Position numbers and translations under genes: made by a program. From NCBI GenBank assembly GCA_964525395.1, contig CAZGGU010000002.1, forward strand, positions 30,263 through 94,262: DNA of 64,000 nucleotides. Reading direction: 5' to 3'. Positions 9,212 to 27,028 of this stretch are shown here, piece after piece. The notes beneath the pieces were generated by a model that did no database searches, had not been told where the DNA came from, and was given only the letters and a program-made list of their open reading frames with translations. Positions within the stretch are counted from its first letter, which is position 1. Each line of letters opens with the position of its first letter. This DNA is from an uncultured Gammaproteobacteria bacterium. GTDB taxonomy: Bacteria; Patescibacteriota; Microgenomatia; Levybacterales; UBA12049.

Positions 9212-9213
9212 TA

Positions 9214-9944: not shown

Positions 9945-9952
9945 TAAGCTTA

Positions 9953-9984: not shown

Positions 9985-9996
9985 CAAAAACTAGCT

Positions 9997-13237: not shown

Positions 13238-13953
13238 TATTTAAAAGAATATCCTCCAAATATATTATTTTTCACCCAATTTTCTCCGATAGGGCAGCTT
13301 CTGCTCCCCTGAGAAACAATTTGATCTGCCATAAATTCAGCCATACTCTCATTTGAGCCGCTTATATTTCTACCCAAGCTTCTTGCATAGGATGTGTCAT
13401 ATGTGTAGAAAAAATAAGGCGGAAACAATCCAGAAGCAAAAGTGTAGCAGTTTTTGTCCTTGTTGTATGCTTGAGATTCAAATTGTTGAAAAAGCCTCAT
13501 GTGGCCATTTCTAATAATGTGACCAGATTCATGAACTAGTCTTGCTTTTCTCTCGCTATTGCTTGCACAGCTTAAGCTATAACTTCTCAATGTTAGCGTA
13601 CTTGTTCCATCACCGTTGGATTGAACAGTTGCGGGGCATCCTCCTTCGCCAGTTGATATAAATTCAAGTCTGGTTGGGCCTGAACTCCTCAATAATTGTT
13701 TATATTTGGGAGCAGCTGATGCTTCAAGATATATTTTATAGACATCCTGAAGATATGCTTTAGGAGGATTCCCTTGTACTATTATGTTGAAGTCATCTCT
13801 TAAGCATTTAGCGGGATTGTCTAAGCAGGCTTGTGTGGGTTTTACTCCACTTCCAACAATAAGCCTTAAGACTGACTGATCAGCTGCGCGAGCGCTTGAA
13901 GAACTTATCAATAAAAGAAAAATTGGTAAGAAAATTATTAAGATTTTTTTCAT
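13237..13953 (-). CDS. secreted Cys-rich protein with zinc-metallopeptidase-like HExxH...H motif
   Basis: Signal peptide MKKILIIFLPIFLLLISSSSARA; LVHESGHIIRNGH motif; 4-nt overlaps with both flanking genes. Confidence 0.4.
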   Translation of the reverse strand: MKKILIIFLPIFLLLISSSSARAADQSVLRLIVGSGVKPTQACLDNPAKCLRDDFNIIVQGNPPKAYLQDVYKIYLEASAAPKYKQLLRSSGPTRLEFISTGEGGCPATVQSNGDGTSTLTLRSYSLSCASNSERKARLVHESGHIIRNGHMRLFQQFESQAYNKDKNCYTFASGLFPPYFFYTYDTSYARSLGRNISGSNESMAEFMADQIVSQGSRSCPIGENWVKNNIFGGYSFK

Positions 13954-15950
13954 GATTTACCCTCCTGTGCAGTACAAGCGCTACAAGATCCACTCGGAGA
14001 TCTTACTTCACCTCGTCTTATTATATCCTTGCATGCGCTAGTATTTTTAAATTTATCATAGTAACAAAGACATCTGGCGGTTCCCCAATAGCTAAAGTTT
14101 TTTCCATCCCTGGCCAAGGAGTTGTTATATGACACAGCGTTTTCTACCTGTTTTTGCCAAGTCACGTCTCCGCGGTCATCAGCCTGAGTCCAAATCTTGA
14201 ATGGGTTAGGGAAGCTTCTTCTCATCTGGAACTTTCCCCATGATCCCCCCGCGCCGTTTCGCCCATAACCGTTTGGCGTATTGGTCTCACATTTGGCAAT
14301 CGATTTCCACATGTTTTGATTAGCCACGTTTGCCTCTGTTTGCTCAATTACTCTGTTTAATTTAGCTTCTGAATATGTGCATAACGGATCACCGAAATTG
14401 GTTGCAGAGGACTGGGGAAAATCTTTTTTAAGAGTAGTCATAATTTCCCGATATTTACCGTTGCAGGTGTTATTGCTTGGCCTAGCTGTAGCGCCTTCAA
14501 ACAGTCCGCCATTTTCTCCGGAGGTGCCTCCATCATTGGTAAGTGTCACGCCACTCATGGTCAGAATCATGCTCGTGGCGCCTGTATCAGTTTGCAGGGT
14601 CCCGCTAACTGTAAATTCATAGTGTCTTTTGGTTCCACCTGTGTTTGGCAGGCTCCACTGATAGATAAAATAGGTAGTATCTACGGGAACGCTAATTATT
14701 TTAGGTTTAGGATTGTCTGGTGTTTCAATGTTTGCGAAAAATCTATTACTGATTTGAACATTGGCCTTTAAGTTGCTTGGGTTAGTATCGAGCTTAGCGG
14801 TGTCAACATCGATGATTACTTTTACTGAAACCTTATCGCCTTTACTTCCTGCTGGGCAGTTTACTCTGCAGCCATCTGCTGTAGCAAGATAAGCCTCGCC
14901 CCCCACAAAAGTGACAGAGGTGGGTTTTTCCTGTGGACCCGGTGGCGGCTGTGTGACTTGATCAGGGTTATTGCCACAATAGTTTGCTCCGAAAAAGTCT
15001 CCAATCGGATTATTCACTACGCTACAGCCCAGTATTAGTATAATTATTACTAGTAGAAAAATTGCAAATATTACTCCCACCACAGGTCCCCATATCTCGA
15101 TTGTGGAAAGTAGTGTTCTGGCTACTGCTTTTTTGCCTTGAGACTTCAAAGTCTTTCCTAAAGCTTTTTTGGTTATTCTACCCCTTTTTCTCAGAGCTCT
15201 TCCGGCCGGCCTTGCTTTTGATGGAGCAGTGGACACTTGAGGTGTTGATTGCGGTTCTGGGAGCGGTTCTGGTATGGGTTCAGACCTTCCCCAGTCATCG
15301 AAATTGCTTGGGATGATTTCGGGATCAGGATAGTAGCCAATTTCAGATATAGACGGGGTGGTAGCGCTTGGGGTGGTGGTTGCGTTTTGTTTGGTAGCTT
15401 CTTGCGCACTGTTTTCTTGCTGAGGATTCAAGGAGACTGAAGGAACGCTTGATTCAATTTCGCCCCATTCAGATTTAAGTTGAGCTAAATCCTGCGGAGT
15501 AGTTTCAGAAATTTTTTCCCCAGCTTTTTGCATTTGGTCAAAGCGCGTCTTGGGTTGGGTGGGAGCATTTTCGATCGAAGTATTATTTGGTTTATCTTTT
15601 TTCTCTTCTGCTTCTGGTTTTTTAGGCTCAGGTTTTGGCTTTGGGGCAAAAGGCGCGTCCCATCCCGAAAGCGCATTGCTAAATACATTTCCCCCTGGAG
15701 TTTCTTTAGGCATTTCCTTAATCTCAGGTTTTTCTGGTTCAGGGGCTTGAATTCTTGATGCTAGCCAATCTTGTCGGGCAAGAAGTGTGCCCGGAATGTC
15801 TCTTATTCCTTTAGAGCGTAAAACTGCCTCAAGGTCTACCTGGGAACCACTCAGTGCAATTTCTTTTTCTTGCGGGGTAAGTAGGCTATAAACAAGCTCA
15901 AAACGCCTAGAGTTTCTTAGTCTTTTCTCAGCTGTAGGATCGTTTGCCAT
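13950..15950 (-). CDS. bitopic membrane protein with C-terminal Rpf/transglycosylase-like (lysozyme-like) domain; candidate T4SS cell-wall hydrolase (VirB1/PrgK/TcpG analog)
   Basis: Central TM VVGVIFAIFLLVIIILILG; Pro/Lys-rich linker; C-terminal KCETNTPNGYGRNGAGGSWGKFQM...W...SYWGTARCL resembles Rpf transglycosylase-like domain (CESGGNW..NGYYGGLQF...W...C). Confidence 0.5.
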   Translation of the reverse strand: MANDPTAEKRLRNSRRFELVYSLLTPQEKEIALSGSQVDLEAVLRSKGIRDIPGTLLARQDWLASRIQAPEPEKPEIKEMPKETPGGNVFSNALSGWDAPFAPKPKPEPKKPEAEEKKDKPNNTSIENAPTQPKTRFDQMQKAGEKISETTPQDLAQLKSEWGEIESSVPSVSLNPQQENSAQEATKQNATTTPSATTPSISEIGYYPDPEIIPSNFDDWGRSEPIPEPLPEPQSTPQVSTAPSKARPAGRALRKRGRITKKALGKTLKSQGKKAVARTLLSTIEIWGPVVGVIFAIFLLVIIILILGCSVVNNPIGDFFGANYCGNNPDQVTQPPPGPQEKPTSVTFVGGEAYLATADGCRVNCPAGSKGDKVSVKVIIDVDTAKLDTNPSNLKANVQISNRFFANIETPDNPKPKIISVPVDTTYFIYQWSLPNTGGTKRHYEFTVSGTLQTDTGATSMILTMSGVTLTNDGGTSGENGGLFEGATARPSNNTCNGKYREIMTTLKKDFPQSSATNFGDPLCTYSEAKLNRVIEQTEANVANQNMWKSIAKCETNTPNGYGRNGAGGSWGKFQMRRSFPNPFKIWTQADDRGDVTWQKQVENAVSYNNSLARDGKNFSYWGTARCLCYYDKFKNTSACKDIIRRGEVRSPSGSCSACTAQEGKS

Positions 15951-15953
15951 ATG

Positions 15954-17987
15954 TTAGAAAGTTTTAGTTGCATCATTAATGTTTTGACTAGGTAGAGGTG
16001 ATTCTGGCGCTGATTGAAAGCCAAAATCAACCGGAGCTGATGGTTGATGGGATGCAGGCGGAATGGGTGCAGGTTGGGTTGGGCTTGCAGCCTCAATATT
16101 CAGATTAGGGTTGGTTGTTATTTCTACTTTTTCTTCTTGGGGATGAGATTCGATGGCTGAGCCAAATTGTGATTCCAGTGTATTGTCAGGGCGCTGCTCT
16201 TGTTCTTTAAGTGCTTTTAGTTTGAGAACTTCTTCGGGATTGGAAGTAATAAGTTCATGTTCAAATGGCGCAGCCAAAACCTTCATGGCCACATGACTTT
16301 GGCCAGCGAAGAATAATCCTTCACCGATGTTGGCAGAGAGCAAGAGTTGTTTTTCTTGTTCGGAAAGATAGAAAATATTTGATACCAAATCAATCTGCGT
16401 TGGGCTTTGTTTCAGCAGCATTTGAATAGATGAGTTTGAAAGTACAGCCTTGCCGTAATCATTGGACAAAAAGTCCTGAACATCCTGTGTTGCAGTAGTT
16501 AGAGCAAGGTAATATTTACGAGCTCGCTTAGCAATTCCGTGTACAAAAGAAGCTGAATCTTGATACTTCATTAAATACCATGCCTCATCTAAGACTAGTA
16601 GGCGTTTTTTAAGATCTTTTCTTACCTTGGTCCAAATAAAATCAAGAATGATATGCATTGCCACAGGACGTAGTTGATCTTCAAGTCCTTGCGTTGAGAA
16701 AATAGTCAAAGGATTTTTAATATCAAAGTTAGACTGCTGATTAAATATTCCAGCCATGCTGCCTTTAATAAATTTCTCAAGCCTGAGAGCCAAGTCTCTA
16801 GCAATAGGATCTTCTGTGCCAAGCAAGACCTTGTATAAATCTTCCATAAGGGGTGGTTCTTTAGTTTGCGTTGAAGGATCAGGGGTAATTCCTTTTTGAC
16901 GATAGGTTTCCACTAGCGCGCGGTCAAGAATGGCGTCATGTTGTGCGTCAATGTCTCCCAAAACAATCCTGAGTAGGGCGTGCAGAGACAGGATTTTTAG
17001 TCCTAGTTCGTTTTCCCCCTCTTCGTATCTTCCTGAAAGATCAAAAGGATTAATCTTAATAGGTGAGGCTGGGGTAAACTCTACATATTCTCCTCCCATA
17101 GCTCGCGTAAGCTCTCCATACTCGCCTTCAGGGTCAATAACGATAACCTCTGTACCAAACATAAACTGCCTCATGATTTCTAGCTTGATCAAATAAGATT
17201 TTCCAGATCCTGACTTTCCGAATACTACCTCATTGCCGTTCTCAAGAGAATATCGATCAAAGACTATTAATGAGCCATTGAGTTGATTAATGCCATACAT
17301 GACGCCCTTATCTTGAGTAAGTGTGGCTGATGTGAAGGGAAAGGTGGATGCAAGACTGGTAGTGTCCATATTGCGCGTGAGAAGAAGCTCATCTCGCGCT
17401 AAAGGCACAGTGGATTTAAATCCCTCCTCCATCTGTAATGTTGAAGGTTTAGCGGTCAAGAGAATTGAAGCAAGAAGGGTCTTGAGTCTTTTTCCTGCTT
17501 CTTTTAGTTCTTCTAAATCATCAGCAACGAGTGTTACATAGAGGCTAAATTGGAAAAATCTCTCAATACCTTTGGCAAGCTCCTCTTGAACGGCAAGCGC
17601 ATCTTCGAGAGAGGCTTGAACTGTGGGATCCAAAACTTTTCCATCTTCTTCTTGCTTGGAAAGCGTAGCTTCCATTTCAGCGATTTTTCTTCTTAAGTCT
17701 CCCAAAATATCTCCAGATGACTGAGGATAGCAAAACATGGAGATGTTTAGTGATTGATCAAAATCAATTAAAGGCTCTAGCCAATTCGGCGAAACGTATC
17801 TTGGATATCCAACCACGAAAAATGTTTTAAAATATTTTTCTCCGACGCGAATGTGTCCGAAATCGACCTCTACGGATGGGGGAGCGATAATGTCAGTCAC
17901 ACTGTTCATTCCACGCTCGAAATGCTCAAGTGGTTTATTCGTTTTGGTTGGCATTGGAACAACAGGAGCTTTTTTTCGTCCAAACAT
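15954..17987 (-). CDS. virB4: type IV secretion ATPase VirB4/TrbE/PrgJ family (main body)
   Basis: Walker A FGKSGSGKSYLIK, Walker B LLVLDEAWYL, conserved VirB4 N-domain segment HIRVGEKYFKTFFVVGYPRYVSPNWLEPL. Confidence 0.8.
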   Translation of the reverse strand: MFGRKKAPVVPMPTKTNKPLEHFERGMNSVTDIIAPPSVEVDFGHIRVGEKYFKTFFVVGYPRYVSPNWLEPLIDFDQSLNISMFCYPQSSGDILGDLRRKIAEMEATLSKQEEDGKVLDPTVQASLEDALAVQEELAKGIERFFQFSLYVTLVADDLEELKEAGKRLKTLLASILLTAKPSTLQMEEGFKSTVPLARDELLLTRNMDTTSLASTFPFTSATLTQDKGVMYGINQLNGSLIVFDRYSLENGNEVVFGKSGSGKSYLIKLEIMRQFMFGTEVIVIDPEGEYGELTRAMGGEYVEFTPASPIKINPFDLSGRYEEGENELGLKILSLHALLRIVLGDIDAQHDAILDRALVETYRQKGITPDPSTQTKEPPLMEDLYKVLLGTEDPIARDLALRLEKFIKGSMAGIFNQQSNFDIKNPLTIFSTQGLEDQLRPVAMHIILDFIWTKVRKDLKKRLLVLDEAWYLMKYQDSASFVHGIAKRARKYYLALTTATQDVQDFLSNDYGKAVLSNSSIQMLLKQSPTQIDLVSNIFYLSEQEKQLLLSANIGEGLFFAGQSHVAMKVLAAPFEHELITSNPEEVLKLKALKEQEQRPDNTLESQFGSAIESHPQEEKVEITTNPNLNIEAASPTQPAPIPPASHQPSAPVDFGFQSAPESPLPSQNINDATKTF

Positions 17988-18649
17988 TATTTATTTCCTC
18001 CCTTCACAGTTTTTGCTGATACGTATGGATTATGAATTCCGTCGGTAAGGTTAGAGCGTCCAGCTTCTTCATTGAACGATTCATAGTAAAGCTCAATTAG
18101 CTCCTCTTTCTCTAGAACTTTTGACTTAAGGCCAACGCGCTGAAGTTCTTGCATAAGAGAACGTGCTTTTGAGACAAGCATAGGCTTGGCTTCTTTAGCA
18201 AAATCTTCTTTATTTCTAATATTGGTCACTGCTCCTGCGCCCTTTTCCAGAAAAGAATAGGTAAAAACAAGATAAAATTTCTTATCAAGGACTGTTTCTT
18301 TTTGGATAAGGTTGGCTACAAAATCCTTATAGAGAAGGATGTGTTTGGAAAGTAGGGGATTGTTCGTTTTCTTTGACTCTGCGTCTAGAAGATGAACGTA
18401 GGAGCTAATATCAAGCTTTCTGGAAACAATCAGAATCTGAATTGGGTAAGAAAGTGAATTTAGGAAAGAAGCATACGAGAGAATTTTAACTTGCTGCTCC
18501 TCAGGCGACTGCAAAGCGAAGTTGGTAGCGGTAATTTCTAGAACCATGCATGCCTGATTGCCGGGTAAAACCACTACGCTCTCGAATATGTCCTGAATTT
18601 CAATAAAGCGTTGAGTGGTTGTATTTATTTTTTGGGCAGATTTGCTCAT
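17987..18649 (-). CDS. separately encoded VirB4 N-terminal segment (split virB4), translationally coupled
   Basis: VVVLPGNQACMVLEITATNFALQSPEEQQVKILSYASFLNSL matches the first conserved block of the CagE/TrbE/VirB4 N-domain; stop overlaps next start as TAATG at 17985-17989. Confidence 0.5.
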   Translation of the reverse strand: MSKSAQKINTTTQRFIEIQDIFESVVVLPGNQACMVLEITATNFALQSPEEQQVKILSYASFLNSLSYPIQILIVSRKLDISSYVHLLDAESKKTNNPLLSKHILLYKDFVANLIQKETVLDKKFYLVFTYSFLEKGAGAVTNIRNKEDFAKEAKPMLVSKARSLMQELQRVGLKSKVLEKEELIELYYESFNEEAGRSNLTDGIHNPYVSAKTVKGGNK

Positions 18650-19885
18650 TTAGTTAAAAAGCTCCCTCCTAAGCTCTTCCCTTTTATCCACCGAAGTTAC
18701 TTCAATTGGCATAATTGGATGACCGGTTGCTTCGATTTGAACAATGTCGAATTTATTTTCTTCTTTAGGGTCTTCAAAGCTCAGGAAATATTTGCCATTT
18801 GAAACAGAGGTGGCTGAAGCAAATTGACCAAGGCCATTGGTTTTAAATGCTCTGACAGGATTATCTTCTTCGTCTTTTACTTCAACTAATACGTTCTGAA
18901 GTGGATTTCCTCTCGGGTCTTTTACAATTCCAGTGATAAGATTGGGCGCTTCAGGCATGCTAAGAACTCCTGCAGCCTTGGTTTGATTTGGCGCCACTTG
19001 CTTTACTCTTGGTTCCTGAGTTGCTTGAGGTGCTGGAGGGTTGGGCTGGCTCGTTGGCTGAGCAGGAATCACTGGAGGAGTTGAATGATCCTCAAGCTTA
19101 GAGTTGATCTTAAGAACCTCTCGCTCTAGTTCTTCTTTTTGACGAGTTGCTTCAGCAAGCATTTTTTCTAACTCTGCGATTTTTTGATCAGCAGCATCTT
19201 GATTTACGGCTGGAGCGGTTTGCTCAAGTGTTTTGCTTGCCTCAATTTGTTTTTCAAGAATCGCAGTTTCTGCATCTATTTTTTTCTCTGCAGCTTCCAC
19301 TTTTGCCTTTTGCTCTTGGTCTAGTTGATCTTGTTGAGCTTTTTCTTGAGCGGCTCTAGCAAGCTCGTCTGCGCTTGGTTGATTAGGAGTAGGAGCTACT
19401 TGTGCTGGCGCTGGGACTGGAGCTTGAATTGGTTGGATTTGTTGAACAGGTTGAGCTGAGATTTGATTTAATTCAATAGTTTGCATAACGGGAATATTTG
19501 GTGCTTGAACTGGCACGTGTGGCGCAGGCAAGGGGATGACTTGGGGTATCTGCTTCTCGGAAACTGTTTGCTTCTGGGTTTTAGTGATATCTCCACCATC
19601 TTTTCCATAAATATATTTCGTGGGGGAAAGCATGGCTCTGAAAAGATTGATAAACATAGTGTCCATTGGGCGTCCGTCCACGGGAACGAAGGTAAAGATT
19701 ATTCCTATAGTTACAATCACAATTGAGATTGGCCAAGAAATGATGTGAGGAATTGGCAACAGGAAAGAGATAAACCAGCCAATCAAAACGACAACTGCCA
19801 AATACACAAACTGCCTAACGGTCATAGAACCGATAAGCTTAAATTGAAAGCCTGTAATGTCTTGGGGAATTGGGTGATTCTCCAT
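18650..19885 (-). CDS. PrgI/VirB3-like two-TM protein fused to long Pro/Gln-rich coiled-coil and C-terminal globular domain
   Basis: N-term IPQDITGFQFKLIGSMTVRQFVYLAVVVLIGWFISFLL followed by second TM matches PrgI-family topology/motif (P.D...K....T.RQ); central coiled-coil EQKAKVEAAEKKIDAETAILEKQIE. Confidence 0.45.
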   Translation of the reverse strand: MENHPIPQDITGFQFKLIGSMTVRQFVYLAVVVLIGWFISFLLPIPHIISWPISIVIVTIGIIFTFVPVDGRPMDTMFINLFRAMLSPTKYIYGKDGGDITKTQKQTVSEKQIPQVIPLPAPHVPVQAPNIPVMQTIELNQISAQPVQQIQPIQAPVPAPAQVAPTPNQPSADELARAAQEKAQQDQLDQEQKAKVEAAEKKIDAETAILEKQIEASKTLEQTAPAVNQDAADQKIAELEKMLAEATRQKEELEREVLKINSKLEDHSTPPVIPAQPTSQPNPPAPQATQEPRVKQVAPNQTKAAGVLSMPEAPNLITGIVKDPRGNPLQNVLVEVKDEEDNPVRAFKTNGLGQFASATSVSNGKYFLSFEDPKEENKFDIVQIEATGHPIMPIEVTSVDKREELRRELFN

Positions 19886-20013
19886 CTATTCTCTTTCCCT
19901 GCCTAATATTAACAATAGAATAATATGTGAAAAATCCCATTTCAAGGCTATCGAAATAGATCAGGTTTAGAAGAAATTGGCCTTAAATGTGAAAAGCCAT
20001 TTCTGACTAGAAG

Positions 20014-20388
20014 TTATTGAGTGCCCCTGCCTGCTCTAAGGTTAGTCGCGTTGGTAGTTGCATTGCATGATGTAAAGCCAAATTTAGTAATGCAGCCAAC
20101 TCCTGTTATGCCAGCAATAATATTTAAAACAGCGAAGGACATAAGTATAACTATGAGACCGATTAGAGCCCAAGTGATAGTTTTTTTAGCCCCATCTGCT
20201 GCCTTAGGGTCTCCTCCAGAGGTGATATATTTTATTCCGCCAAGAATTACTAAGAAAAGTGCAATTATTCCTGCGAAGGTTAGAGCCCAAAAAATAAGGT
20301 TTTGAAATAGTACAGTTGCACAGTCTAAGGTAAGTATCTCCCCATACTTACTATCAAACGCACAAGCATTACCAGCTAATTTAAACAT
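20014..20388 (-). CDS. VirB2/TrbC-like pilin paralog 3
   Basis: Two hydrophobic helices flanking ILGGIKYITSGGDPKAADGAKKTITWALIGL; shared motif with the two upstream paralogs. Confidence 0.55.
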   Translation of the reverse strand: MFKLAGNACAFDSKYGEILTLDCATVLFQNLIFWALTFAGIIALFLVILGGIKYITSGGDPKAADGAKKTITWALIGLIVILMSFAVLNIIAGITGVGCITKFGFTSCNATTNATNLRAGRGTQ

Positions 20389-20431
20389 AAATTTAGCGTA
20401 ACAAAGAGGGGATTAAATCTCAAGCGGAAGT

Positions 20432-20851
20432 TTAACTGTTGGTGTAATTGGTAAGTGTGGGAAGAGTTAAATTGGTTAAGTTAATTCCGAAAAAGCCAAG
20501 TAAAATGTTCAAGATAAAGAATGACAAGAACATGATTGCGAGACCGATAAGAGCTGCTACAATCATTTGTCTTGATGCATCAACCTTCTTGGAGTCTCCG
20601 CCTGACATTATCCACTGAATTCCTCCAAAAATAAGGAAGCCGAGAGCAATAATTACGCCGATTACGAAAACTACTTGGATAAGGGTAGCCACTATTCCGC
20701 TGAAATCAGAGAGAGTTAATTTACAAAGTCCGCCAAATCCTCCACCAGGGCATACGCTAATTTTTTGTTGAGCATGTGCTTGAGGAGCGAGTGTTAAGAA
20801 TGGTACCGCTGAAAGTGAAATGGCAGTTATCTTTTTCATGTATATAAACAT
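20432..20851 (-). CDS. VirB2/TrbC-like pilin paralog 2 (with cleavable signal peptide)
   Basis: Signal peptide ...LTLAPQAHAQQ; FLIFGGIQWIMSGGDSKKVDASRQMIVAALIGLAIMFLSFFILN. Confidence 0.55.
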   Translation of the reverse strand: MFIYMKKITAISLSAVPFLTLAPQAHAQQKISVCPGGGFGGLCKLTLSDFSGIVATLIQVVFVIGVIIALGFLIFGGIQWIMSGGDSKKVDASRQMIVAALIGLAIMFLSFFILNILLGFFGINLTNLTLPTLTNYTNS

Positions 20852-20887
20852 CGTAGAAATATTTTAAATTCTTGTCAAGGGGTCAAT

Positions 20888-21223
20888 TTATGTGAGCTTT
20901 AAAAGATTGAGTCCGAAGAATCTGCCGACTACATTAATTATGAAAAATGCTAAGAAGGTGATGATAAGGCCAATCGCTGCGAAAGTAATTTTCTTTCTGG
21001 CCCCATCTACAGCTTTCGCATCTCCACCTGATGAAATCCACTGAATCCCGCCCCACATGATGAAAAATAAGGCTGCTAAGACTGCAGCAATAAACATGTA
21101 TGTAATTCCCAAGCGAATTACACCTTGAAGAGTGGGGAGACCAGACTCAGGCATGCCACCAATGGGTTTTAAATCAATTTGTTTGCCGTCACTGGGAACT
21201 TTAAGTGCTATTTCTCTAATCAT
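20888..21223 (-). CDS. VirB2/TrbC-like pilin paralog 1
   Basis: FFIMWGGIQWISSGGDAKAVDGARKKITFAAIGLIITFLAFFIIN; two TM hairpin. Confidence 0.55.
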   Translation of the reverse strand: MIREIALKVPSDGKQIDLKPIGGMPESGLPTLQGVIRLGITYMFIAAVLAALFFIMWGGIQWISSGGDAKAVDGARKKITFAAIGLIITFLAFFIINVVGRFFGLNLLKLT

Positions 21224-21225
21224 AT

Positions 21226-22470
21226 TTAACTAAATCCTGGAAGACCAAGGATATCAACTGTAATTAATCTAAGAATTGAGAGAGAAAAGATGATGAGTAA
21301 AAGTCCTGCAACGGCTGCTATTATGGCTTCTCTTGCTTCTGCTATTTTTTTAGGGTCCCCCTGTGAGGTCATTAGTTTAAATCCATTAGCGATAAAAAGA
21401 ATAATAAGAATTCCACCGGAAAGACTGAGGACGAGAATCAGCACGCTTCTAGCAAAGCCTTCAGGATTAATCCCAATCTTACCTATAGCTGTGTTGCAGG
21501 AGTTTGGAATTGCTTCGCCGGATTTAGGCTGACAGGGATTAGAAACTTTATTGCCCGGGTAGTCATAGCAGCCCAACTTTCCATCTGTGCCTGTGGTGCA
21601 GTATTTGCCACCGCATTCGGAATCATTATTGCAGCCTGAATGACCACCGTTTTGATCCACCGTGAAAGAGTCTGAGCAGTTTGTGTTATATTTGCCATCG
21701 ATCTGGACTTTATATGAGTTTTCTCCTATTAAATCATTTCCTACCGATACTCCCGCCGCTGCCTCGAGTTCACTTCTAGTTGGTGTAAATCTTTTTATCT
21801 CTGATCCATTTTCAGTTCCATTTATTTGAATAATTCTGACAAGCATTTTATCTTCAGGTTTTTCTGTAAACTCCTTTTTAAATGCAGCTTTTATTTTAAC
21901 TTCAGTTCCAGGCTTAAAATCAGTGTTTAGATATGTAATCGTGCAAAACTTATTGTCAACGCTAGTTTTTTGAATTTCCAAAGAGGCGCTTCCTAGGCTG
22001 CAGAGTAGAAAATCTCTGTTTTGACCCTGCTCTCCTTGGTGTCCGGTGGTTCTTAAATTGAATTCATATTTGCCAGGGTTGAAATCTGATGCATGATCCC
22101 CCTTTGTGTTTCCATTTCGATCAAATGGGGTATTAACAGTTGCGAGAGTATCTTCTTCGAATCGTTCCAGCGTCACTTTCGCAGGTACATTTGATTTATA
22201 AAATAAATCTCCAGTATCTTCTCCAATCGTACGAATGTCTCCTCCTTGTGGATTTATTGTCATTTCAATATTTGACGTAAGTGGAATTTGTTGACCCTTT
22301 ATTTTTAAGGTGATGCTATTTATTATATGGTCATCATCTCCTGCAGACTGTTTTTCTGAAATCTTCTGGATAGAACATTCACTTTTAGAATTTTGAGCAT
22401 AAGTAGGCTGAGTGTAAGTTGAAACAATCAGTATTAAAAAGAGTAGGACAGCAAAGATAATTCTTTTCAC
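21226..22470 (-). CDS. secreted Cys-rich extracellular domain fused to C-terminal pilin-like module (candidate minor pilin/tip adhesin)
   Basis: Signal peptide MKRIIFAVLLFLILIVSTYTQPTYA; Cys-rich GCNNDSECGGKYCTTGTDGKLGCYDYPGNKVSNPCQPK; C-terminal ILFIANGFKLMTSQGDPKKIAEAREAIIAAVAGLLLIIF shares the pilin paralog motif. Confidence 0.5.
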   Translation of the reverse strand: MKRIIFAVLLFLILIVSTYTQPTYAQNSKSECSIQKISEKQSAGDDDHIINSITLKIKGQQIPLTSNIEMTINPQGGDIRTIGEDTGDLFYKSNVPAKVTLERFEEDTLATVNTPFDRNGNTKGDHASDFNPGKYEFNLRTTGHQGEQGQNRDFLLCSLGSASLEIQKTSVDNKFCTITYLNTDFKPGTEVKIKAAFKKEFTEKPEDKMLVRIIQINGTENGSEIKRFTPTRSELEAAAGVSVGNDLIGENSYKVQIDGKYNTNCSDSFTVDQNGGHSGCNNDSECGGKYCTTGTDGKLGCYDYPGNKVSNPCQPKSGEAIPNSCNTAIGKIGINPEGFARSVLILVLSLSGGILIILFIANGFKLMTSQGDPKKIAEAREAIIAAVAGLLLIIFSLSILRLITVDILGLPGFS

Positions 22471-22506
22471 AATTTTATCGTAGAAGAAAATGAGATTTTT
22501 GGCAAG

Positions 22507-23814
22507 TTAAGGTGTGAATTTAAAGCCGCGTCCTTTTACAGTTTGCAGATGAAGCGGTGAATTAGGGTTTTCTTCAATTTTTTTCCTAACCCTAAAAATA
22601 AGTTGATCAAGCGCTTGCTCTGAGACCCCAACTGTAGTGCCTAAATCTCCCCAAACTGCAGAGATGATTTCCTCTCTTTCGATTATCTTGTCAGGATTCA
22701 TTAGCAGATAAGCAAGAAGCTTAAATTCAGCAGATGTTAAAGATTCTGAAATAATAATTTTTCCTTTTTTAATTTCTTTAGACTCTTTATTAAAACTAAT
22801 CTTTTGAGTATCTGTCTCATTTTGTTTTTTTGCATAAGACATGAGTAGCGGAAGAGCAAATTTATTATCCCTAACTAATCCTACTGCCACGAGATGTGAA
22901 GAATCGTGAGCTTTGTTTTCCTCGATGAGGTTTTGCTCAAATGGAGTAAAATATTTCCAAATTTCTTCCAAAACTGCCTTGATTCTGCTGTTTGAAAATA
23001 AAGATTTTTCTAAATTTTCTTGTTCACCGTTTTCTAGACAAGCCTCAGCTGCTACTCTGGTTAGTTTTCCTACGCCTCCAGTTAAATTCGTGACTGTCTC
23101 GAGTGTTTGCTCTGAAAGTTTTTTATTCGCTTGTTTTTGAATATAATTTAACCTGAAATCTAAAACTGCCTTATTCATCAGCGGCAAATATACTATATTT
23201 CCTACTACGAATTCGTAATAATCAGCAATTAAATCATTTTCTACTATTTCTTCGAGTGGGCGAGAGAGAGGAAAGATAGCAGAGAAGCGATATTTAGCTC
23301 TGTCTCTAAGAACCCTAAGATTGCTAAAAAATTGTGGCGTAAGCATTGGGAGATATTCCTCAAAGCGATCGAAGAGAAAAACAACTGTATATTCTTTTTC
23401 AAGTGACAGATAATCAATAGATTTTCGCAGTCCTTGAAACAGAACTAGTTCATCGTTGGTTTTGAGGCTTTGTTCGAAAAGTCCACGAATATATTTAGAT
23501 TCTTCTTCCAGATGGCGTTCTTCAAAAGAATCAAGTAGCTCAAGAAACATATACTTGGTAGCCTCAGTTAATGGTCGTTTTTTAATTTCAGAGAAATTCA
23601 TCATGACGAAGTGAAACCATTTTTCGTTTTCCTTGAGGTGAAGAGTTCTGGCTTCGCGATTGTAGGAAAGAAGTCCCATGATGTTGGATCTTCCTACGCC
23701 TGGAAGAGAAACGATTTGCGCAGAATTTCCAGATTTTATATATGAGAGGACTTTATCAATTTCATCAAACCATGAATCTGGGGGATATAGAGATTCGAAA
23801 TGTTTAGGATCCAT
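22507..23814 (-). CDS. transcriptional regulator: N-terminal P-loop/STAND-like NTPase domain + C-terminal OmpR/PhoB-type winged-helix DNA-binding domain
   Basis: C-term LTSAEFKLLAYLLMNPDKIIEREEIISAVWGDLGTTVGVSEQALDQLIFRVRKKIEENPNSPLHLQTVKGRGFKF = trans_reg_C wHTH; N-term SLPGVGRSNIMG (degenerate Walker A) and VVFLFDRFEE (Walker B-like). Confidence 0.55.
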   Translation of the reverse strand: MDPKHFESLYPPDSWFDEIDKVLSYIKSGNSAQIVSLPGVGRSNIMGLLSYNREARTLHLKENEKWFHFVMMNFSEIKKRPLTEATKYMFLELLDSFEERHLEEESKYIRGLFEQSLKTNDELVLFQGLRKSIDYLSLEKEYTVVFLFDRFEEYLPMLTPQFFSNLRVLRDRAKYRFSAIFPLSRPLEEIVENDLIADYYEFVVGNIVYLPLMNKAVLDFRLNYIQKQANKKLSEQTLETVTNLTGGVGKLTRVAAEACLENGEQENLEKSLFSNSRIKAVLEEIWKYFTPFEQNLIEENKAHDSSHLVAVGLVRDNKFALPLLMSYAKKQNETDTQKISFNKESKEIKKGKIIISESLTSAEFKLLAYLLMNPDKIIEREEIISAVWGDLGTTVGVSEQALDQLIFRVRKKIEENPNSPLHLQTVKGRGFKFTP

Positions 23815-23914
23815 TAAAACATTGTAATCTAACTAGCCTCAAAACGTCAATTTTATAAGGCTTTTGTAATGTAGATATCAAGTCTATAGTTTGATTTTTC
23901 CTTAAACTACGCAC

Positions 23915-26900
23915 ATGGAAAGAGAAGCTTTCACGCCAGAAGAATTGACAGGACAAGGCCAAAACGCCTATTCTAGAAGTATGCCAGAAACACCTGATAA
24001 TCCTATTAAAGGTCCTGAACAAATACCGCCTCAAAGAGTAAAAAGACCACATTCAGAAGTTAACCCATCGTCAATTGAAGAAAGAATTCAGCAAATGGCG
24101 GAGGAATATCGAGGAAAAGGAATTCCTGTAGATTTTGGCACTCTCCAAGCTTTTAGAGCTCTTGCAGAAAGAGGAATTATGCCAATGGGTGGAGGCGCAG
24201 ACGATCCCGATGGGGGACCTGCGGGGGGAAGAAGACGAAGAAGAGCGGGAGCAGATGGAGTGCCGCCAATTCCACTAGATGAACAAATTAATGCATTTGC
24301 AGAAGCGAATGGGCTTAGTCCTGAAACCGACCGTGCTTATATTCTTAACGCGTTGGACCGTCAAAGAGCAGATGATGAGAGAAGAGCTGCTAGAGCTCAA
24401 GGGGCAGAGGGGTGGAGAACTATGTATCTTAAGGATCAGGACATGGAAATTTTGAACAGAAATCCCATGGAGTGGATCGAGGAAAAGTTTAATGAAATAA
24501 ATGCTCTTGCTAAGAAAGGAGCAGAACTTGATTCTCCTGCGCTTCAGCGTATTCAAACACTTTTCGGAGAAGCGCATGAGTACGTAGCTAATTTTAAGAA
24601 AAATGATCCTGAGCTAGTTCAGCAATTTACTGATGTATTTTTAGGAAGACTTAACTTAATGTTTATGGCTTCCACTATTGAGCTACGAGATTTAGAGTCT
24701 GCAGGGAAAATGGCAAGAAGAACAAAAGCTTCTACTCTATTTAGTGCGATGGAATATGAAGATGGAAAAGTAGGAATGCTCTATAACAGAATGCAAACTA
24801 TGTATGAAGATTACAGATTGGCTATCGGAGGAGTAGATAGAAAAATATTACCCGAGTTTGAATCTCGATTCCAGCAATTTATTATAGACGGAGAAATGAA
24901 GATGGCGAAGAGAGGGGTAGGTGAATATGCGGCCAAATATGCAGAAATAACGGCTATTGTTAATGGGCAAGGATTGTCAGAAAGACAAAGAGTAATACTT
25001 GGGAAGATGGGAATAAATCCCGATGATCCTATTCAGGCTACCCCAGAAAAGCTAGAAGAAGCAAGACAAGCTGAGATAAATGACAGAATTGAGCTAGATA
25101 TTAGAAGAGCAATGGGACCTGCTTGGGATATTTTCCGTATAACCCAGCGTCATGCGGTTATTAATGCTAGAGCGCATAAAACAAATTCTAGAGATGTTAA
25201 GAAATTGGCTGGAGGTTGGAAGGAGTTTTTAGGTCAGAATGGTGCTGCTTTTGCTTCATTTAACGCGGAAAATATGCTCTGGGAGGAATATGGCCTCTAT
25301 ACTGGTCATGATTGGGCTTTTGTAAGAGAAATTAAGCGTGATCTGGCAACTTCAGAGATAGCAGATAGGCTCAAAAATATTAAGAAAAAAAGAGCTAAAT
25401 TAAATGCTGGTGAAGATCCAGATAAAGATGATCATCATGTAAGCGATGAGGATGAAGGAGAAGAGGATCATCATGTTCTTCATGATGAACATCCAGAAAC
25501 ACCTGAACAAAGAAATGTTAGATTTGCGGAAATACGTAGACAGCTTCAAATTGAAGAGAATATTTTACGCAACATGACACAAGCAGATGTGGATGAGTTT
25601 GGAAAGACGCTCTTTAGAGATATGTATGCAGCTGCTGATTTTTACTCCTCTGGGTGGAGAATGAACGGTATCTTAGATCAGCTTGACAAGTATGGAAATT
25701 ATTTAAATTCTCAGGATGGGGTGGATCCACATCATCCAGTATTTGATTCCAAAAATTTCGGAATGTTTGTTCGATTAAGGGCAGATGCAGGTGGTAGAAG
25801 AGATACCTGGGAAAGAATTGCCACATTTCGACAGGAGGAAATATTAAGGCTTTACAGAGATAAAATTCTGACAGAGCCTAGCCCACAGTACGATAGCCAT
25901 GGTCATAAAATTAAGGCAAAAAAGCCAGCGCCAGATTATATGAAGCCGTCGCTTGATTTATTCTTCGGTAAGCTTAGAGAAATGGGAATAACTACTGACG
26001 ATTTACCTGCAGAATTAAAAGATGCTCAAACAACTGAATACGATGTATTTAAATTAAGGTATGGAGCAGCGATTCAAACTATTCGCCAGCAGGAGATGGA
26101 GGCTAGGGGAAATGGAGTACCGCGTCAAATAGACTTTTCTGCAATTGAGGTAGGATCAGATGACTATGTAAGATTTAAAGAAATAATTGATAATTCAGTG
26201 GGAAAGGAAGGAGCAATTGATGATGTCATAAGAGTTTACAAGGAAATGAATAGATTCATTGGACGTAGGGATGCTATTGGTTTTGAACCCAAGGTGATTG
26301 ATAGGCTTATTTATGATCCCAAGTTTGCGGATATTTACACGAGAGTGATAACAGCAGATGATATCCTTTCAACAAAGATTGAAGGACCCTCATCGCCTAT
26401 AACTTCTCTTACTCAAAGTGTTTCCGTAGATCAGGCAACTGACGCACTTGTTAGAAATTTTAATGATTTAGGCCATGCGGGAAATGCAATGGGTGGACTT
26501 TTGACGTTCGTTAAAGAAGAGCACGAAGAACCTAGATTAAAGGCAGCGCTTGAATTCGCTGAAGAAGCAAGCATGTATGGAGGGCAGGATGCTAGAGCTA
26601 AGAATGTAAGATTTACTTTTGGAACTTATCTTAATCTAGCGAAGAAAGATTGGCTTTGGGACACAATGGATTTTGAGTCAGGGCCTGCAAGAAAAGCGAT
26701 TTCAAATGCACAGAAAATATATGGGCCACAGTTGAAGGCTAAATCAAGAGCAGAATTAAGACATGAATTAGATGAAATTAGATATAAGCTCGAGGGCGCC
26801 TTTGGAGGACACCTCGGTGATAAATATTATAGAGAGCTTGAGCATATGCTTGAGGTAACTAGTGGAGATTCTAATAAGATGAGATTTATGTCATTCATGA

Positions 26901-27028
26901 TTGTTTTAATTGCAGCAGCTCTTGTAACACCAGTTGGAGTTTCTAAAGATAGCTTTAATGATGTTGGAGGACTTCTCGCAGGTGGTGGGGGCGGCGGCGG
27001 TGGTGGTGGGGGCGGAGGCCATCATTAA
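23915..27028 (+). CDS. 1037-aa hydrophilic, charged/coiled-coil protein, tail-anchored (single C-terminal TM) with C-terminal poly-Gly-HH tail; unknown function
   Basis: No signal peptide; only hydrophobic segment FMSFMIVLIAAALVTPVGV near C-terminus followed by GGGGGGGGGGGGGHH; locally GC-rich 5' region encoding GGGADDPDGGPAGGRRRRRAGADG. Confidence 0.5.
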   Translation: MEREAFTPEELTGQGQNAYSRSMPETPDNPIKGPEQIPPQRVKRPHSEVNPSSIEERIQQMAEEYRGKGIPVDFGTLQAFRALAERGIMPMGGGADDPDGGPAGGRRRRRAGADGVPPIPLDEQINAFAEANGLSPETDRAYILNALDRQRADDERRAARAQGAEGWRTMYLKDQDMEILNRNPMEWIEEKFNEINALAKKGAELDSPALQRIQTLFGEAHEYVANFKKNDPELVQQFTDVFLGRLNLMFMASTIELRDLESAGKMARRTKASTLFSAMEYEDGKVGMLYNRMQTMYEDYRLAIGGVDRKILPEFESRFQQFIIDGEMKMAKRGVGEYAAKYAEITAIVNGQGLSERQRVILGKMGINPDDPIQATPEKLEEARQAEINDRIELDIRRAMGPAWDIFRITQRHAVINARAHKTNSRDVKKLAGGWKEFLGQNGAAFASFNAENMLWEEYGLYTGHDWAFVREIKRDLATSEIADRLKNIKKKRAKLNAGEDPDKDDHHVSDEDEGEEDHHVLHDEHPETPEQRNVRFAEIRRQLQIEENILRNMTQADVDEFGKTLFRDMYAAADFYSSGWRMNGILDQLDKYGNYLNSQDGVDPHHPVFDSKNFGMFVRLRADAGGRRDTWERIATFRQEEILRLYRDKILTEPSPQYDSHGHKIKAKKPAPDYMKPSLDLFFGKLREMGITTDDLPAELKDAQTTEYDVFKLRYGAAIQTIRQQEMEARGNGVPRQIDFSAIEVGSDDYVRFKEIIDNSVGKEGAIDDVIRVYKEMNRFIGRRDAIGFEPKVIDRLIYDPKFADIYTRVITADDILSTKIEGPSSPITSLTQSVSVDQATDALVRNFNDLGHAGNAMGGLLTFVKEEHEEPRLKAALEFAEEASMYGGQDARAKNVRFTFGTYLNLAKKDWLWDTMDFESGPARKAISNAQKIYGPQLKAKSRAELRHELDEIRYKLEGAFGGHLGDKYYRELEHMLEVTSGDSNKMRFMSFMIVLIAAALVTPVGVSKDSFNDVGGLLAGGGGGGGGGGGGGHH

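What the first reader, a model, noticed from the sequence alone, without database searches (positions are those of the whole stretch)
20014..22470. Tandem array of three VirB2-like pilin paralogs plus a Cys-rich extracellular protein carrying the same pilin module
Three adjacent small genes share the motif GGIxWIxSGGDxKxVDxARxxIxxAxIGLxIxFLxFFIxN, embedded in a two-helix hairpin. One has a clear cleavable signal peptide.

A fourth, 414-aa gene directly upstream has a signal peptide, then a ~300-aa Cys-rich domain with more than 14 Cys, and ends with the same pilin module. This suggests a minor pilin or tip adhesin built on the major-pilin scaffold.

The paralog multiplicity, and the fusion of an adhesin-like domain to a VirB2 fold, is not a described feature of classical T4SS.
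Basis: partly seen in the sequence, partly recalled or inferred. Interest (0 to 1): 0.65.

Follow-up and report, generated by a model that had tools for sequence, protein, structure and literature searches.

The report
Patescibacterial T4SS pilin gene array

Summary
Window 20014-22470 (minus strand) holds four consecutive genes (414, 111, 139 and 124 aa) that share a two-helix hairpin module with an S-x-G-D-x-K loop. All four hit Pfam PF18895 (T4SS_pilin). Two score above the curated cut-off and two fall just below it.

They sit in a chromosomal, oriC-proximal T4SS locus: AAA-wHTH regulator, pilins, PrgI/VirB3, TrsD, VirB4, then dnaN and dnaA. This locus is syntenic in about 25 Candidatus Levybacteria-type (Microgenomatia) genomes.

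Tandem VirB2-like arrays of 2-11 genes near virB4 and dnaA in Patescibacteria were published in 2025 (PMC12102498), and one such array is essential in Southlakia (PMC10633639). The claim that paralog multiplicity is undescribed is therefore wrong. The 414-aa protein has 10 Cys, not more than 14.

What I add:
- The long pilin is a conserved first gene of the array and belongs to a large family (1,606 representatives at E<=1e-30).
- Its ectodomain is hypervariable (18% identity, tandem beta-sandwiches plus a Cys knot) on a conserved module (53% identity) that ends in PGF.
- The four genes are ancient, slot-specific orthologous groups, not interchangeable copies.

The most likely function is a heteromeric T4SS pilus or conduit with a modular, host-facing subunit. 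This is inferred, not shown.

The parts
21226..22470 (-). Long modular pilin (414 aa, GTG start). It is the first gene of the pilin array.
   Evidence: ORF. PF18895 scores 34.0 bits at residues 339-402. The same sequence is in the NCBI-derived collection (P0001). Long pilin-module proteins occupy the first position of the array in 26 related loci with arrays of at least four genes.
22396..22470 (-). Signal peptide of the long pilin (residues 1-25, cleavage predicted at TYA|QN).
   Evidence: Hydrophobic segment 1-23. AF2 predicts helix 2-18. The feature is aligned and conserved in homologues. The cleavage site is read by eye and was not predicted with a dedicated tool.
21973..22383 (-). Ectodomain beta-sandwich 1 (residues 30-166).
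   Evidence: AF2 predicts strands 31-166 with pLDDT about 50-75. Foldseek against PDB matches tandem Ig/FN3-type proteins at E about 1e-4.
21679..21945 (-). Ectodomain beta-sandwich 2 (residues 176-264).
   Evidence: AF2 predicts strands with pLDDT 80-94. Foldseek gives tandem Ig/FN3 matches.
21466..21678 (-). Cysteine-rich knob or linker (residues 265-335), with 7 Cys at 265, 280, 286, 291, 301, 313 and 325, followed by the conserved TAIG motif.
   Evidence: Cys positions. C265 and C313 are invariant, and C291 and C301 are conserved in at least 90% of 16 homologues.
21229..21465 (-). Pilin module of the long protein (residues 336-414): helix 336-368, loop SQGDPKK, helix 373-407, C-terminal LGLPGFS.
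   Evidence: AF2 model. PF18895 hit. P411, G412 and F413 are invariant in homologues, and most long pilins in other loci end in (L/I)PGF.
20888..21223 (-). Short pilin, slot 2 (111 aa). It has no Cys and no signal peptide, and starts 2 nt after the stop of the long pilin.
   Evidence: PF18895 scores 26.1 bits, E 9e-6. AF2 gives pLDDT 80 with a hairpin H29-64/H69-103. Slot-2 orthologues share the Cys-free N-part of about 32 aa.
20432..20851 (-). Short pilin, slot 3 (139 aa as the longest ORF; probably 135 aa from Met5 at 20839). It has a Sec signal peptide ending AHA|QQ and a Cys pair (C34, C43) in the mature N-terminal part.
   Evidence: PF18895 scores 22.5 bits, E 1.3e-4. 28 of 35 slot-3 orthologues have exactly two Cys in the N-part, and about half show a hydrophobic leader. 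The 139-aa form is not in the protein collection.
20014..20388 (-). Short pilin, slot 4 (124 aa). It has a Cys pair in the N-part (C9, C23) and a Cys pair in the C-terminal tail (C99, C108; motif C-I-T-K-F-G-F-T-S-C).
   Evidence: PF18895 scores 29.6 bits. NF045849 scores 37.7 bits, below its cut-off of 40. 24 of 26 slot-4 orthologues have two Cys in the N-part, and 18 of 26 have two in the tail.
22477..22505 (-). Promoter-like site TTGCCA-17-TACGAT that ends 6 nt before the GTG of the long pilin (possible leaderless mRNA).
   Evidence: This is a consensus match only.
20850..20878 (-). Promoter-like site TTGACA-17-TACGAT that ends 10 nt before Met5 of the slot-3 pilin.
20395..20423 (-). Promoter-like site TTGAGA-17-TACGCT that ends 6 nt before the ATG of the slot-4 pilin.
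19978..19999 (-). Terminator-like hairpin just downstream of the slot-4 pilin.
   Evidence: Pattern match only.
22507..23814 (-). Context: 435-aa protein with a C-terminal OmpR/PhoB-type winged helix, here called the AAA-wHTH regulator. It lies immediately upstream of the long pilin.
   Evidence: PF00486 at 1.4e-18. A homologue lies next to the long pilin in about 20 related loci.
18650..19885 (-). Context: PrgI/VirB3-like protein (411 aa) with a C-terminal CarboxypepD_reg-like domain.
   Evidence: PF12666 at 3.5e-11. Syntenic in related loci.
17987..18649 (-). Context: TrsD-like protein (a separate N-terminal part of VirB4).
   Evidence: NF045975 residues 97-279 and NF041427 TrsD.
15954..17987 (-). 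Context: VirB4-type ATPase of the monoderm (CD1110) family.
   Evidence: NF045971 scores 388 bits, above its cut-off of 325. PF19044 at 1.7e-28.

Best explanation
**Shown.** These four genes are the pilin array of the chromosomal, oriC-proximal type IV secretion system of a Patescibacteria (CPR) bacterium of the Microgenomatia/Levybacteria type.
- Each product carries a T4SS_pilin (PF18895) module, which is an alpha-helical hairpin with a short polar, positively charged loop.
- The array has four ancient, non-interchangeable slots. The long first subunit carries a signal peptide, two beta-sandwich domains and a Cys-rich knob N-terminal to the hairpin. The three short subunits each have their own conserved N- and C-terminal decorations.

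**Inferred.**
- The hairpins insert into the membrane with both termini outside and the loop in the cytoplasm. Cysteine pairs occur only in the N-parts and tails, and two of the four proteins have cleavable signal peptides.
- The VirB4/TrsD/PrgI machinery extracts the hairpins and stacks them into a heteromeric pilus or wall-spanning conduit, as VirB2/TraA pilins are.
- The three short subunits build or initiate the shaft.
- The long subunit places its fast-evolving, disulfide-stabilised ectodomain on the outside, most plausibly at the tip or as a sparse decoration. There it contacts the host cell surface and helps set host specificity.
- What the system transports is unknown. No relaxase was found in the window, so transport is probably not conjugative DNA transfer.
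For: **Family and context**
- PF18895 hits on all four proteins.
- Neighbouring PrgI, TrsD and a CD1110-type VirB4, with dnaN and dnaA next door.
- No relaxase domain in any scanned ORF of at least 110 aa in the window.
- Relatives lie mostly in Ca. Levybacteria MAGs.

**Fold**
- High-confidence hairpin in p111 (pLDDT 80) and in p414.

**Link to VirB2**
- Family members retrieved by the pilin profile hit both PF18895 and PF04956 TrbC/VirB2, the latter above its cut-off (31.3, 30.6, 29.4 and 29.1 bits against 27.9).
- hhalign against eight annotated VirB2/TrbC proteins gives a topologically congruent 64-column alignment (E 0.002, probability 14%).

**Conserved layout**
- Long pilin first, then 3-5 short pilins, then PrgI-TrsD-VirB4-dnaN-dnaA, in about 25 loci.

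**Slot orthology**
- For 100 of 115 modules, the best hit in another genome is in the same slot.
- For 103 of 115, the best cross-genome hit outscores the best within-genome paralog (median 104 against 57 bits).
- Slot-specific Cys pairs and motifs.

**Long subunit**
- Ectodomain identity is 18% against 53% for the module. There are 4-36 Cys in the ectodomain and none in the module for 33 of 35.
- The ectodomain matches tandem Ig/FN3 folds.
- The family is large (1,606 representatives at E<=1e-30, top hits 250-640 aa).

**Literature**
- Pilin genes are essential in S. epibionticum (PMC10633639).
- Arrays are widespread in Patescibacteria (PMC12102498).
Against: - I found no report that a T4SS pilus has been seen in any Patescibacterium or any monoderm. 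The 2025 review speaks only of a 'potential' to elaborate pili (PMC12857230).
- The window proteins do not hit PF04956 themselves.
- A profile of the family finds no solved pilin by sequence.
- Two of the four Pfam scores are below the gathering cut-off.
- The p414 model is only moderate (pLDDT 68, pTM 0.42). No disulfide geometry could be checked.
- The tip or adhesin role rests on analogy and on the variability pattern only.
Confidence: 0.6

Rival explanations
1. There is no extended pilus. The hairpin proteins stay in the membrane or form only a short wall-spanning stalk of the T4SS channel. The long protein is simply a surface protein held by a C-terminal two-helix anchor next to the machine.
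For: - I found no report of a monoderm T4SS pilus (PMC12857230).
- Related 'pilin-like' proteins (NF045849, Mbov_0395 family) belong to ICEs of wall-less Mycoplasma.
- No VirB5 or VirB1 homologue was detected in the cluster.
- The fold evidence for a pilin is non-discriminating.
Against: - Four conserved paralogous slots with exposed, disulfide-bonded termini are more than a simple anchor needs.
- The family connects by profile to TrbC/VirB2.
- The best low-rmsd structural matches include polymerising conjugative pilins.
Confidence: 0.28
2. The paralogs are interchangeable major pilins kept for antigenic or host-range variation. This has been proposed for Bartonella Trw and Anaplasma VirB2 arrays, and suggested for Patescibacteria.
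For: - The published suggestion in PMC12102498.
- Low identity between paralogs (30-36% over the full alignment).
- Hypervariable ectodomain of the long subunit.
Against: - Each slot is conserved across genomes and is more similar to its positional orthologue than to its neighbours (100/115 and 103/115).
- Each slot has its own fixed signature: signal peptide, Cys pairs, tail motif.
- The pilin genes are reported essential in S. epibionticum.
- Variation is concentrated in one ectodomain, not in the array as a whole.
Confidence: 0.08
3. The small proteins are Sec-secreted effectors or toxin subunits exported by the T4SS. The TM7x array was first read this way, by analogy with the pertussis toxin ptx/ptl locus.
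For: - McLean et al. 2020 described the array as 'small secreted proteins' with signal peptides (PMC7427843).
- Two of the four proteins here have signal peptides.
Against: - Every member has two long hydrophobic helices typical of an integral-membrane hairpin.
- All match a pilin family HMM.
- The similarity to pertussis toxin S1 reported in that paper was 11% identity.
- Later work reinterpreted the array as pilins.
Confidence: 0.03

Closest known systems
VirB2-like pilin arrays of the Patescibacteria T4SS (Quinonero-Coronel et al. 2025, PMC12102498; essential array SEML1_0006-0019 region in Southlakia epibionticum, Wang et al. 2023, PMC10633639)
   Same: - PF18895 proteins in tandem close to virB4, TrsD and PrgI.
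- Chromosomal location next to dnaA and dnaN.
- No relaxase found.
- Especially common in Microgenomatia and Saccharimonadia.
- Paralogs are highly divergent.
- This locus is a member of that kind.
   Different: In what I read, the papers treat the array as a set of variable VirB2 copies. They do not describe a long modular first subunit, the conserved four-slot orthology, or the slot-specific Cys and tail signatures seen here.
TrbC/VirB2 pilins (Pfam PF04956) of Gram-negative MPF-T systems, e.g. Agrobacterium VirB2
   Same: - Small proteins with a leader, then two hydrophobic helices joined by a short loop.
- Encoded next to VirB3 and VirB4 homologues.
- AxA|Q-type cleavage context in two members here and in all eight VirB2/TrbC proteins aligned.
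- Some family relatives score above the PF04956 cut-off.
   Different: - The window proteins do not hit PF04956.
- The profile-profile match is weak.
- The organism is a monoderm with no VirB5, B7, B9 or B10.
- No evidence for cyclisation.
- I know of no VirB2 with a 300-aa N-terminal ectodomain.
VirB2 paralog arrays of Bartonella Trw (TrwL copies) and Anaplasma/Ehrlichia
   Same: Tandem multiplication of the pilin gene in a T4SS used for host interaction rather than conjugation.
   Different: - Those copies are lineage-specific amplifications thought to provide variation.
- Here the copies are ancient, slot-conserved orthologous groups.
- Those systems are diderm and pair the pilins with VirB5 copies.
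Modular type IV pilins of type 4 pili (e.g. Streptococcus sanguinis PilB/PilC; PMC8179133)
   Same: The functional logic is the same: a pilin module used as a scaffold, with a grafted adhesive domain that is displayed by the filament in a monoderm.
   Different: - It is an unrelated pilin fold and machinery.
- Those are class III signal peptide proteins, and no G|F-x-x-x-E prepilin motif is present here.
- The graft is C-terminal in type IV pilins and N-terminal here.
- This is an analogy only, not membership.
VirB5 / TraC-type pilus-tip adhesins of Gram-negative T4SS
   Same: The proposed role is the same: a minor, host-contacting component that initiates or caps the pilus.
   Different: VirB5 is a separate helical-bundle protein with no pilin hairpin. 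No VirB5 homologue was detected here.
Mbov_0395 family pilin-like conjugal transfer proteins of Mycoplasma ICEs (NCBIfam NF045849), and archaeal Ced conjugative pilins (PDB 8dft, 8dfu)

Membership tests
Pfam PF18895 T4SS_pilin | HMM score at or above the gathering cut-off (26.6 bits) | tested here: met
   p414 scores 34.0 bits and p124 scores 29.6 bits. The precomputed annotation also lists PF18895 for P0001 (p414) and P0032 (p111).
Pfam PF18895 T4SS_pilin | The same cut-off applied to the other two short genes | tested here: inconclusive
   p111 scores 26.1 bits and p139 scores 22.5 bits, just below 26.6. However, p111/p139 BLASTP gives 3e-22, and both match p124 at 1e-15 or better. Homology to the members that pass is therefore secure.
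Pfam PF18895 T4SS_pilin | Two long hydrophobic helices joined by a short conserved polar loop (S-x-G-D-x-K) | tested here: met
   AF2 hairpins H29-64/H69-103 in p111 and H336-368/H373-407 in p414. Loop residues are invariant.
Patescibacteria VirB2-like pilin array (as defined in PMC12102498) | Two or more pilin genes in tandem, or separated by one gene | tested here: met
   Four consecutive genes with gaps of 2 to 43 nt.
Patescibacteria VirB2-like pilin array (as defined in PMC12102498) | Located within 20 CDS of virB4, with TrsD and PrgI/VirB3 | tested here: met
   PrgI, TrsD and VirB4 follow directly downstream. The same order is seen in about 25 related loci.
Patescibacteria VirB2-like pilin array (as defined in PMC12102498) | VirB4 of the monoderm MPF-FATA-related clade | tested here: met
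   NF045971 (CD1110 family) scores 388 bits, above its cut-off of 325. Placement in the Patescibacteria-specific clade by phylogeny was not done.
Patescibacteria VirB2-like pilin array (as defined in PMC12102498) | Chromosomal, often next to dnaA and dnaN, with no associated relaxase | tested here: met
   dnaA and dnaN lie at 9997-12614, and the GC-skew minimum is there. No relaxase Pfam domain was found in ORFs of at least 110 aa in the 64-kb window. MOBscan profiles were not available.
TrbC/VirB2 (Pfam PF04956) | HMM match to PF04956 | tested here: not met
   None of the four proteins hits PF04956 at E<=0.1. Only more distant family members do (P0053, P0056, P0061 and P0082 at 29-31 bits against a cut-off of 27.9).
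TrbC/VirB2 (Pfam PF04956) | Profile-profile similarity to bona fide VirB2/TrbC | tested here: inconclusive
   hhalign of the 69-sequence family alignment against eight annotated VirB2/TrbC proteins gives probability 13.6% and E 0.0021 over 64 congruent columns.
TrbC/VirB2 (Pfam PF04956) | Fold match to solved T4SS pilins | tested here: inconclusive
TrbC/VirB2 (Pfam PF04956) | Leader cleavage, with or without cyclisation, and polymerisation into a lipid-containing pilus | not testable with these tools
   Needs mass spectrometry of the mature protein and EM of filaments.
NCBIfam NF045849 (Mbov_0395 pilin-like conjugal transfer protein) | Score at or above the cut-off of 40 bits | tested here: not met
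   Scores are 37.7, 29.7, 19.1 and 15.2 bits.
Type IV (type 4 filament) pilins, including modular pilins | Class III signal peptide with G|F/M-x-x-x-E and a single N-terminal hydrophobic helix | tested here: not met
   The N-termini read directly from the sequences show Sec-type or no signal peptide. The hydrophobic hairpin is C-terminal. No T4P Pfam or NCBIfam pilin family hit was found.

The most novel reading that the evidence does not exclude
The long first-slot protein is a modular VirB2-type pilin, a class not described for any T4SS. It primes or caps a heteromeric, four-component T4SS pilus in a monoderm. Its hypervariable, disulfide-knotted Ig-like ectodomain acts as the host-recognition determinant of the epibiont. 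The invariant C-terminal PGF motif would be an assembly or processing signal.
Probability: 0.3. Interest if true: 0.65.

Novelty: new member of a known kind. Interest (0 to 1): 0.35.

Why it matters
The Patescibacteria T4SS is the first T4SS reported to be essential for growth of its owner, and its function is called 'completely unknown' (PMC11665869). Reviews single out its pilin array as the most surprising feature of a monoderm T4SS (PMC12857230).

Two results from this locus give concrete, testable handles:
- In the Microgenomatia the array is a fixed set of four specialised subunits.
- One subunit carries a large, fast-evolving, cysteine-stabilised surface domain on a conserved pilin stalk.

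The long subunit is the obvious candidate for the part that touches the host. Its ectodomain could be used for binding assays, antibodies or nanobodies, or comparative host-range studies.

For the scan itself, the result is mostly that the finding is a correct recognition of a published system, not a new one.

Tried and rejected
- **Exact-protein contig look-up** for p414 returned nothing, so I could not name the source genome. Taxonomy rests on relatives.
- **Single-sequence homologue search** with p111 found only 4 proteins because of the word prefilter. The alignment-based search was needed.
- **Sequence profile of 42 short pilins against all PDB chains** gave no pilin, only chance hits with E>1.
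- **afdb50 fold library** was unavailable, so I made no survey of predicted structures.
- **hhalign to genuine VirB2/TrbC** was weak. I therefore do not file the genes under PF04956.
- **Promoter scan:** the total count in the region is not above the shuffle expectation (10 against 11.5). Only the position of the sites, right before start codons, is unusual.
- **Pfam and NCBIfam on the ectodomain of p414** gave no family.
- **Chance transmembrane-helix similarity** was considered and rejected (z 6.9-26.6).
- **The pertussis-toxin-like 'secreted array' reading** was considered and rejected.
Full report
**1. What is in the sequence**

Window 20014-22470 carries four consecutive minus-strand ORFs:
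- 21226-22470, 414 aa, GTG start
- 20888-21223, 111 aa
- 20432-20851, 139 aa
- 20014-20388, 124 aa

The gaps between them are 2, 36 and 43 nt.

All four contain two long hydrophobic segments separated by a polar loop. In the four-way alignment, G51, S57, G59, D60, K62, I71, A74, G77 and L78 are invariant.

The similarity is not a by-product of hydrophobic composition:
- Local alignment scores exceed 500 composition-preserving shuffles with z = 6.9 to 26.6 for all six pairs.
- BLASTP E-values among the three short proteins are 3e-22 to 8e-15, and p124/p414 gives 3e-8.

Its cysteine count is not. The 414-aa protein has 10 Cys, at residues 32, 157, 176, 265, 280, 286, 291, 301, 313 and 325. Seven of them cluster in residues 265-325.

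The 139-aa ORF most likely starts at Met5 (MKKITAISL...). The longer form is not in the protein collection, while the other three are.

**2. Family assignment**

- All four hit Pfam PF18895 'T4SS_pilin'. p414 scores 34.0 bits and p124 scores 29.6, both above the 26.6 cut-off. p111 (26.1) and p139 (22.5) fall just below.
- All four align to NCBIfam NF045849 (Mycoplasma ICE Mbov_0395 pilin-like protein), but below its cut-off.
- None hits PF04956 TrbC/VirB2 directly.

The link to VirB2 is indirect:
- A profile of 42 short pilins from this and related loci retrieves family members at E about 1e-20. Several of these score on both PF18895 and PF04956, the latter above its gathering threshold (31.3, 30.6, 29.4 and 29.1 bits against 27.9).
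- I retrieved eight annotated VirB2/TrbC genes from plasmids and compared profiles. hhalign aligned mature N-terminus, helix 1, loop and helix 2 congruently over 64 columns, but only at probability 14% and E 0.002.
- The AlphaFold2 model of p111 is a confident hairpin (pLDDT 80; H29-64, H69-103).
- Foldseek against PDB gave nothing significant.
- A sequence profile search of all PDB chains found no pilin.

Conclusion: the genes are secure members of PF18895. They are 'VirB2-like' by transitive profile evidence and by context, not by a direct test.

**3. Context**

The genes lie in a T4SS cluster on the minus strand:
- a 435-aa protein with a C-terminal OmpR-type winged helix (22507-23814)
- the four pilins
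- a 411-aa PrgI/VirB3-like protein (18650-19885)
- a TrsD-like separate VirB4 N-terminal protein (17987-18649)
- a CD1110-family VirB4 ATPase (15954-17987; 388 bits against a cut-off of 325)
- three unassigned exported or membrane proteins

dnaN, dnaA and yidC follow. The cumulative GC skew has its minimum there.

A VirD4-like coupling protein lies 35 kb away (57212-59569). The rest of the window is housekeeping: LeuRS-type synthetase, PBPs, RNR, PGK, SmpB and others. No relaxase domain was found. This is a chromosomal system, not an ICE or plasmid.

**4. Relatives**

A scan of one genome per species found 46 loci. Most titles that name a lineage are Candidatus Levybacteria/Levyibacteriota. 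Some are Gottesman-, Dojka- and Saccharibacteria. Many other records carry evidently generic 'uncultured Gammaproteobacteria' titles.

I built an HMM of the module and searched the six-frame ORFs:
- Nearly every Levybacteria-type locus has one long module-bearing protein (264-647 aa) first, then three to five short ones (100-200 aa).
- Several Saccharibacteria and Dojkabacteria loci have five to eight short ones.

The order is conserved in about 25 loci: polytopic 523-aa protein, (1037-aa protein), AAA-wHTH, long pilin, short pilins, PrgI, TrsD, VirB4, (exported proteins), dnaN, dnaA.

**5. The paralogs are ancient and slot-specific**

In 26 loci with a long first gene and at least four members:
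- 100 of 115 modules have their best hit in another genome in the same positional class.
- 103 of 115 score higher to another genome than to any paralog in their own genome (median 104 against 57 bits).

Each slot has its own signature:
- **Slot 2 (p111 type):** no Cys and no signal peptide.
- **Slot 3 (p139 type):** a Sec leader ending AxA|Q, and a Cys pair in the mature N-part in 28 of 35.
- **Slot 4 (p124 type):** a Cys pair in the N-part in 24 of 26, and a C-x-x-x-F-G-F-x-x-C tail in 18 of 26.

Cysteines occur in pairs in the parts flanking the hairpin. They are absent from the pilin module in 33 of 35 long proteins. With the cleavable leaders of two members, this argues that both termini are extracytoplasmic and the loop is cytoplasmic. 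From my own knowledge, this is the membrane topology established for VirB2 and TraA.

**6. The long subunit**

The homologue alignment and the AF2 model (pLDDT 68) give this layout:
- signal peptide
- beta-sandwich 1 (residues 30-166)
- beta-sandwich 2 (residues 176-264, pLDDT 80-94)
- Cys-rich knob (residues 265-335; C265 and C313 invariant, C291 and C301 conserved in at least 90%)
- hairpin (336-368 and 373-407)
- an invariant C-terminal P-G-F

Foldseek matches tandem Ig/FN3 proteins such as scFv, EpoR and NCAM at E about 1e-4. No Pfam family covers the ectodomain.

Across 35 long pilins:
- the ectodomain is 185-568 aa
- it holds 4-36 Cys
- its median identity is 18%, against 53% for the module

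A full-length profile finds 17,706 representatives (50% identity clusters) at E<=1e-3 and 1,606 at E<=1e-30. The top 150 are almost all 250-640 aa, and many align end to end. The fusion is therefore a large, conserved family, not a one-off.

**7. Literature**

- Quinonero-Coronel et al. 2025 (PMC12102498) searched 3,035 Patescibacteria genomes with PF18895 and PF04956. They report 441 arrays of 2-11 pilin genes in 383 assemblies, most abundant in Microgenomatia and Saccharimonadia. They also report TrsD, PrgI and VirB4 neighbours, proximity to dnaA and dnaN, and absence of relaxases.
- Wang et al. 2023 (PMC10633639) found the pilin series essential in S. epibionticum.
- A 2025 review calls the array remarkable and the pilus hypothetical (PMC12857230).
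- McLean et al. 2020 first read the array as Sec-secreted proteins analogous to pertussis toxin (PMC7427843).

In the papers I read, including the held supplement of the 2025 survey, I found no description of a long modular pilin or of slot orthology. My search covers open-access text only.

**8. Mechanism**

Shown:
- family membership
- T4SS context
- hairpin fold
- conserved layout
- slot orthology
- variable ectodomain on a conserved module

Inferred:
- N-out/C-out insertion
- extraction and stacking by the VirB4/TrsD/PrgI machine into a heteromeric pilus or conduit
- N-terminal decorations on the outer face (from my own knowledge, by analogy with F- and T-pilus structures, where the loop lines the lumen)
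- the long subunit as a sparse or tip-located host-contact module

The closest functional analogies are modular type IV pilins such as S. sanguinis PilB (PMC8179133) and VirB5 tip proteins. Neither is a relative.

The main rival is that no filament is made, and the hairpins are membrane or stalk parts. The 'interchangeable copies for variation' idea is disfavoured by the slot conservation. The 'secreted toxin' idea is disfavoured by the hairpin.

**9. Verdict**

The system is a regular member of a published kind. The claim of an undescribed paralog multiplicity is wrong.

The modular long pilin and the four-slot organisation are useful refinements with moderate interest. I score interest at 0.35.

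Noticed in passing
window 23821-23850, 22477-22505, 20850-20878, 20395-20423 (minus strand), and five other genes: Promoter-like TTGNNN-N16-18-TANNNT motifs end 4-11 nt before the start codon at 9 of 55 genes, against 1.3% of random positions. Four of these are consecutive genes of the pilin region, three with the unusual -10 box TACGNT. This suggests leaderless or very short-leader mRNAs and separate promoters for three of the four pilin genes.
   Followed up: partly
window 21229-21240 (C-terminus of the 414-aa protein) and long pilins in L001-L034: Most proteins of the long-pilin class end in an invariant (L/I)-P-G-F-(G/S) right after helix 2. The short pilins do not. Its function (processing, sorting or subunit contact) is unexplained.
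   Followed up: partly
window 23915-27028 (+): A 1037-aa protein with no Cys, no family hit, a single C-terminal TM segment and a tail of 14 glycines followed by HH. It is transcribed divergently from the regulator. Homologues are found at the same place in L001, L008, L021 and L024.
   Followed up: partly
window 27054-28625 (-): A 523-aa protein with a signal peptide and at least five hydrophobic segments, and no family hit. It is conserved at the edge of the locus in about 25 related genomes. It is a candidate for the missing VirB6-like channel subunit.
   Followed up: partly
window 18650-19885 (-): The PrgI/VirB3-like protein is 411 aa instead of about 100. After the PrgI domain come a Pro/Gln-rich stretch, a charged coiled-coil-like stretch and a CarboxypepD_reg-like beta-sandwich (30 bits, below its cut-off).
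   Followed up: no
window 15954-18649 (-): VirB4 is split. A 220-aa TrsD-like protein matches the N-terminal part of VirB4 models, and its stop overlaps the start of the 677-aa ATPase at 17987.
   Followed up: no
window 12611-15950 (-): Three genes between VirB4 and dnaN (666, 238 and 208 aa) have no family hit. The 238-aa one has a signal peptide and 6 Cys, the 666-aa one has 12 Cys, and the 208-aa one has one N-terminal TM segment. They are only patchily conserved in related loci.
   Followed up: partly
window 57212-59569 (+): A VirD4/TraD-like coupling-protein homologue (785 aa) is encoded 35 kb from the T4SS cluster. This fits the published observation that T4CP genes are rarely near virB4 in Patescibacteria.
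   Followed up: no
window ~9200-12600: The cumulative GC skew has its minimum at about 10-12 kb, beside yidC, dnaA and dnaN. The replication origin therefore lies next to the T4SS locus.
   Followed up: no
window 31340-32425 (-), 48478-49503 (+): Other predicted surface or secreted proteins in the window are a Lamin-tail-domain protein and a CvpA-CAP (cysteine-rich secretory protein family) fusion.
   Followed up: no
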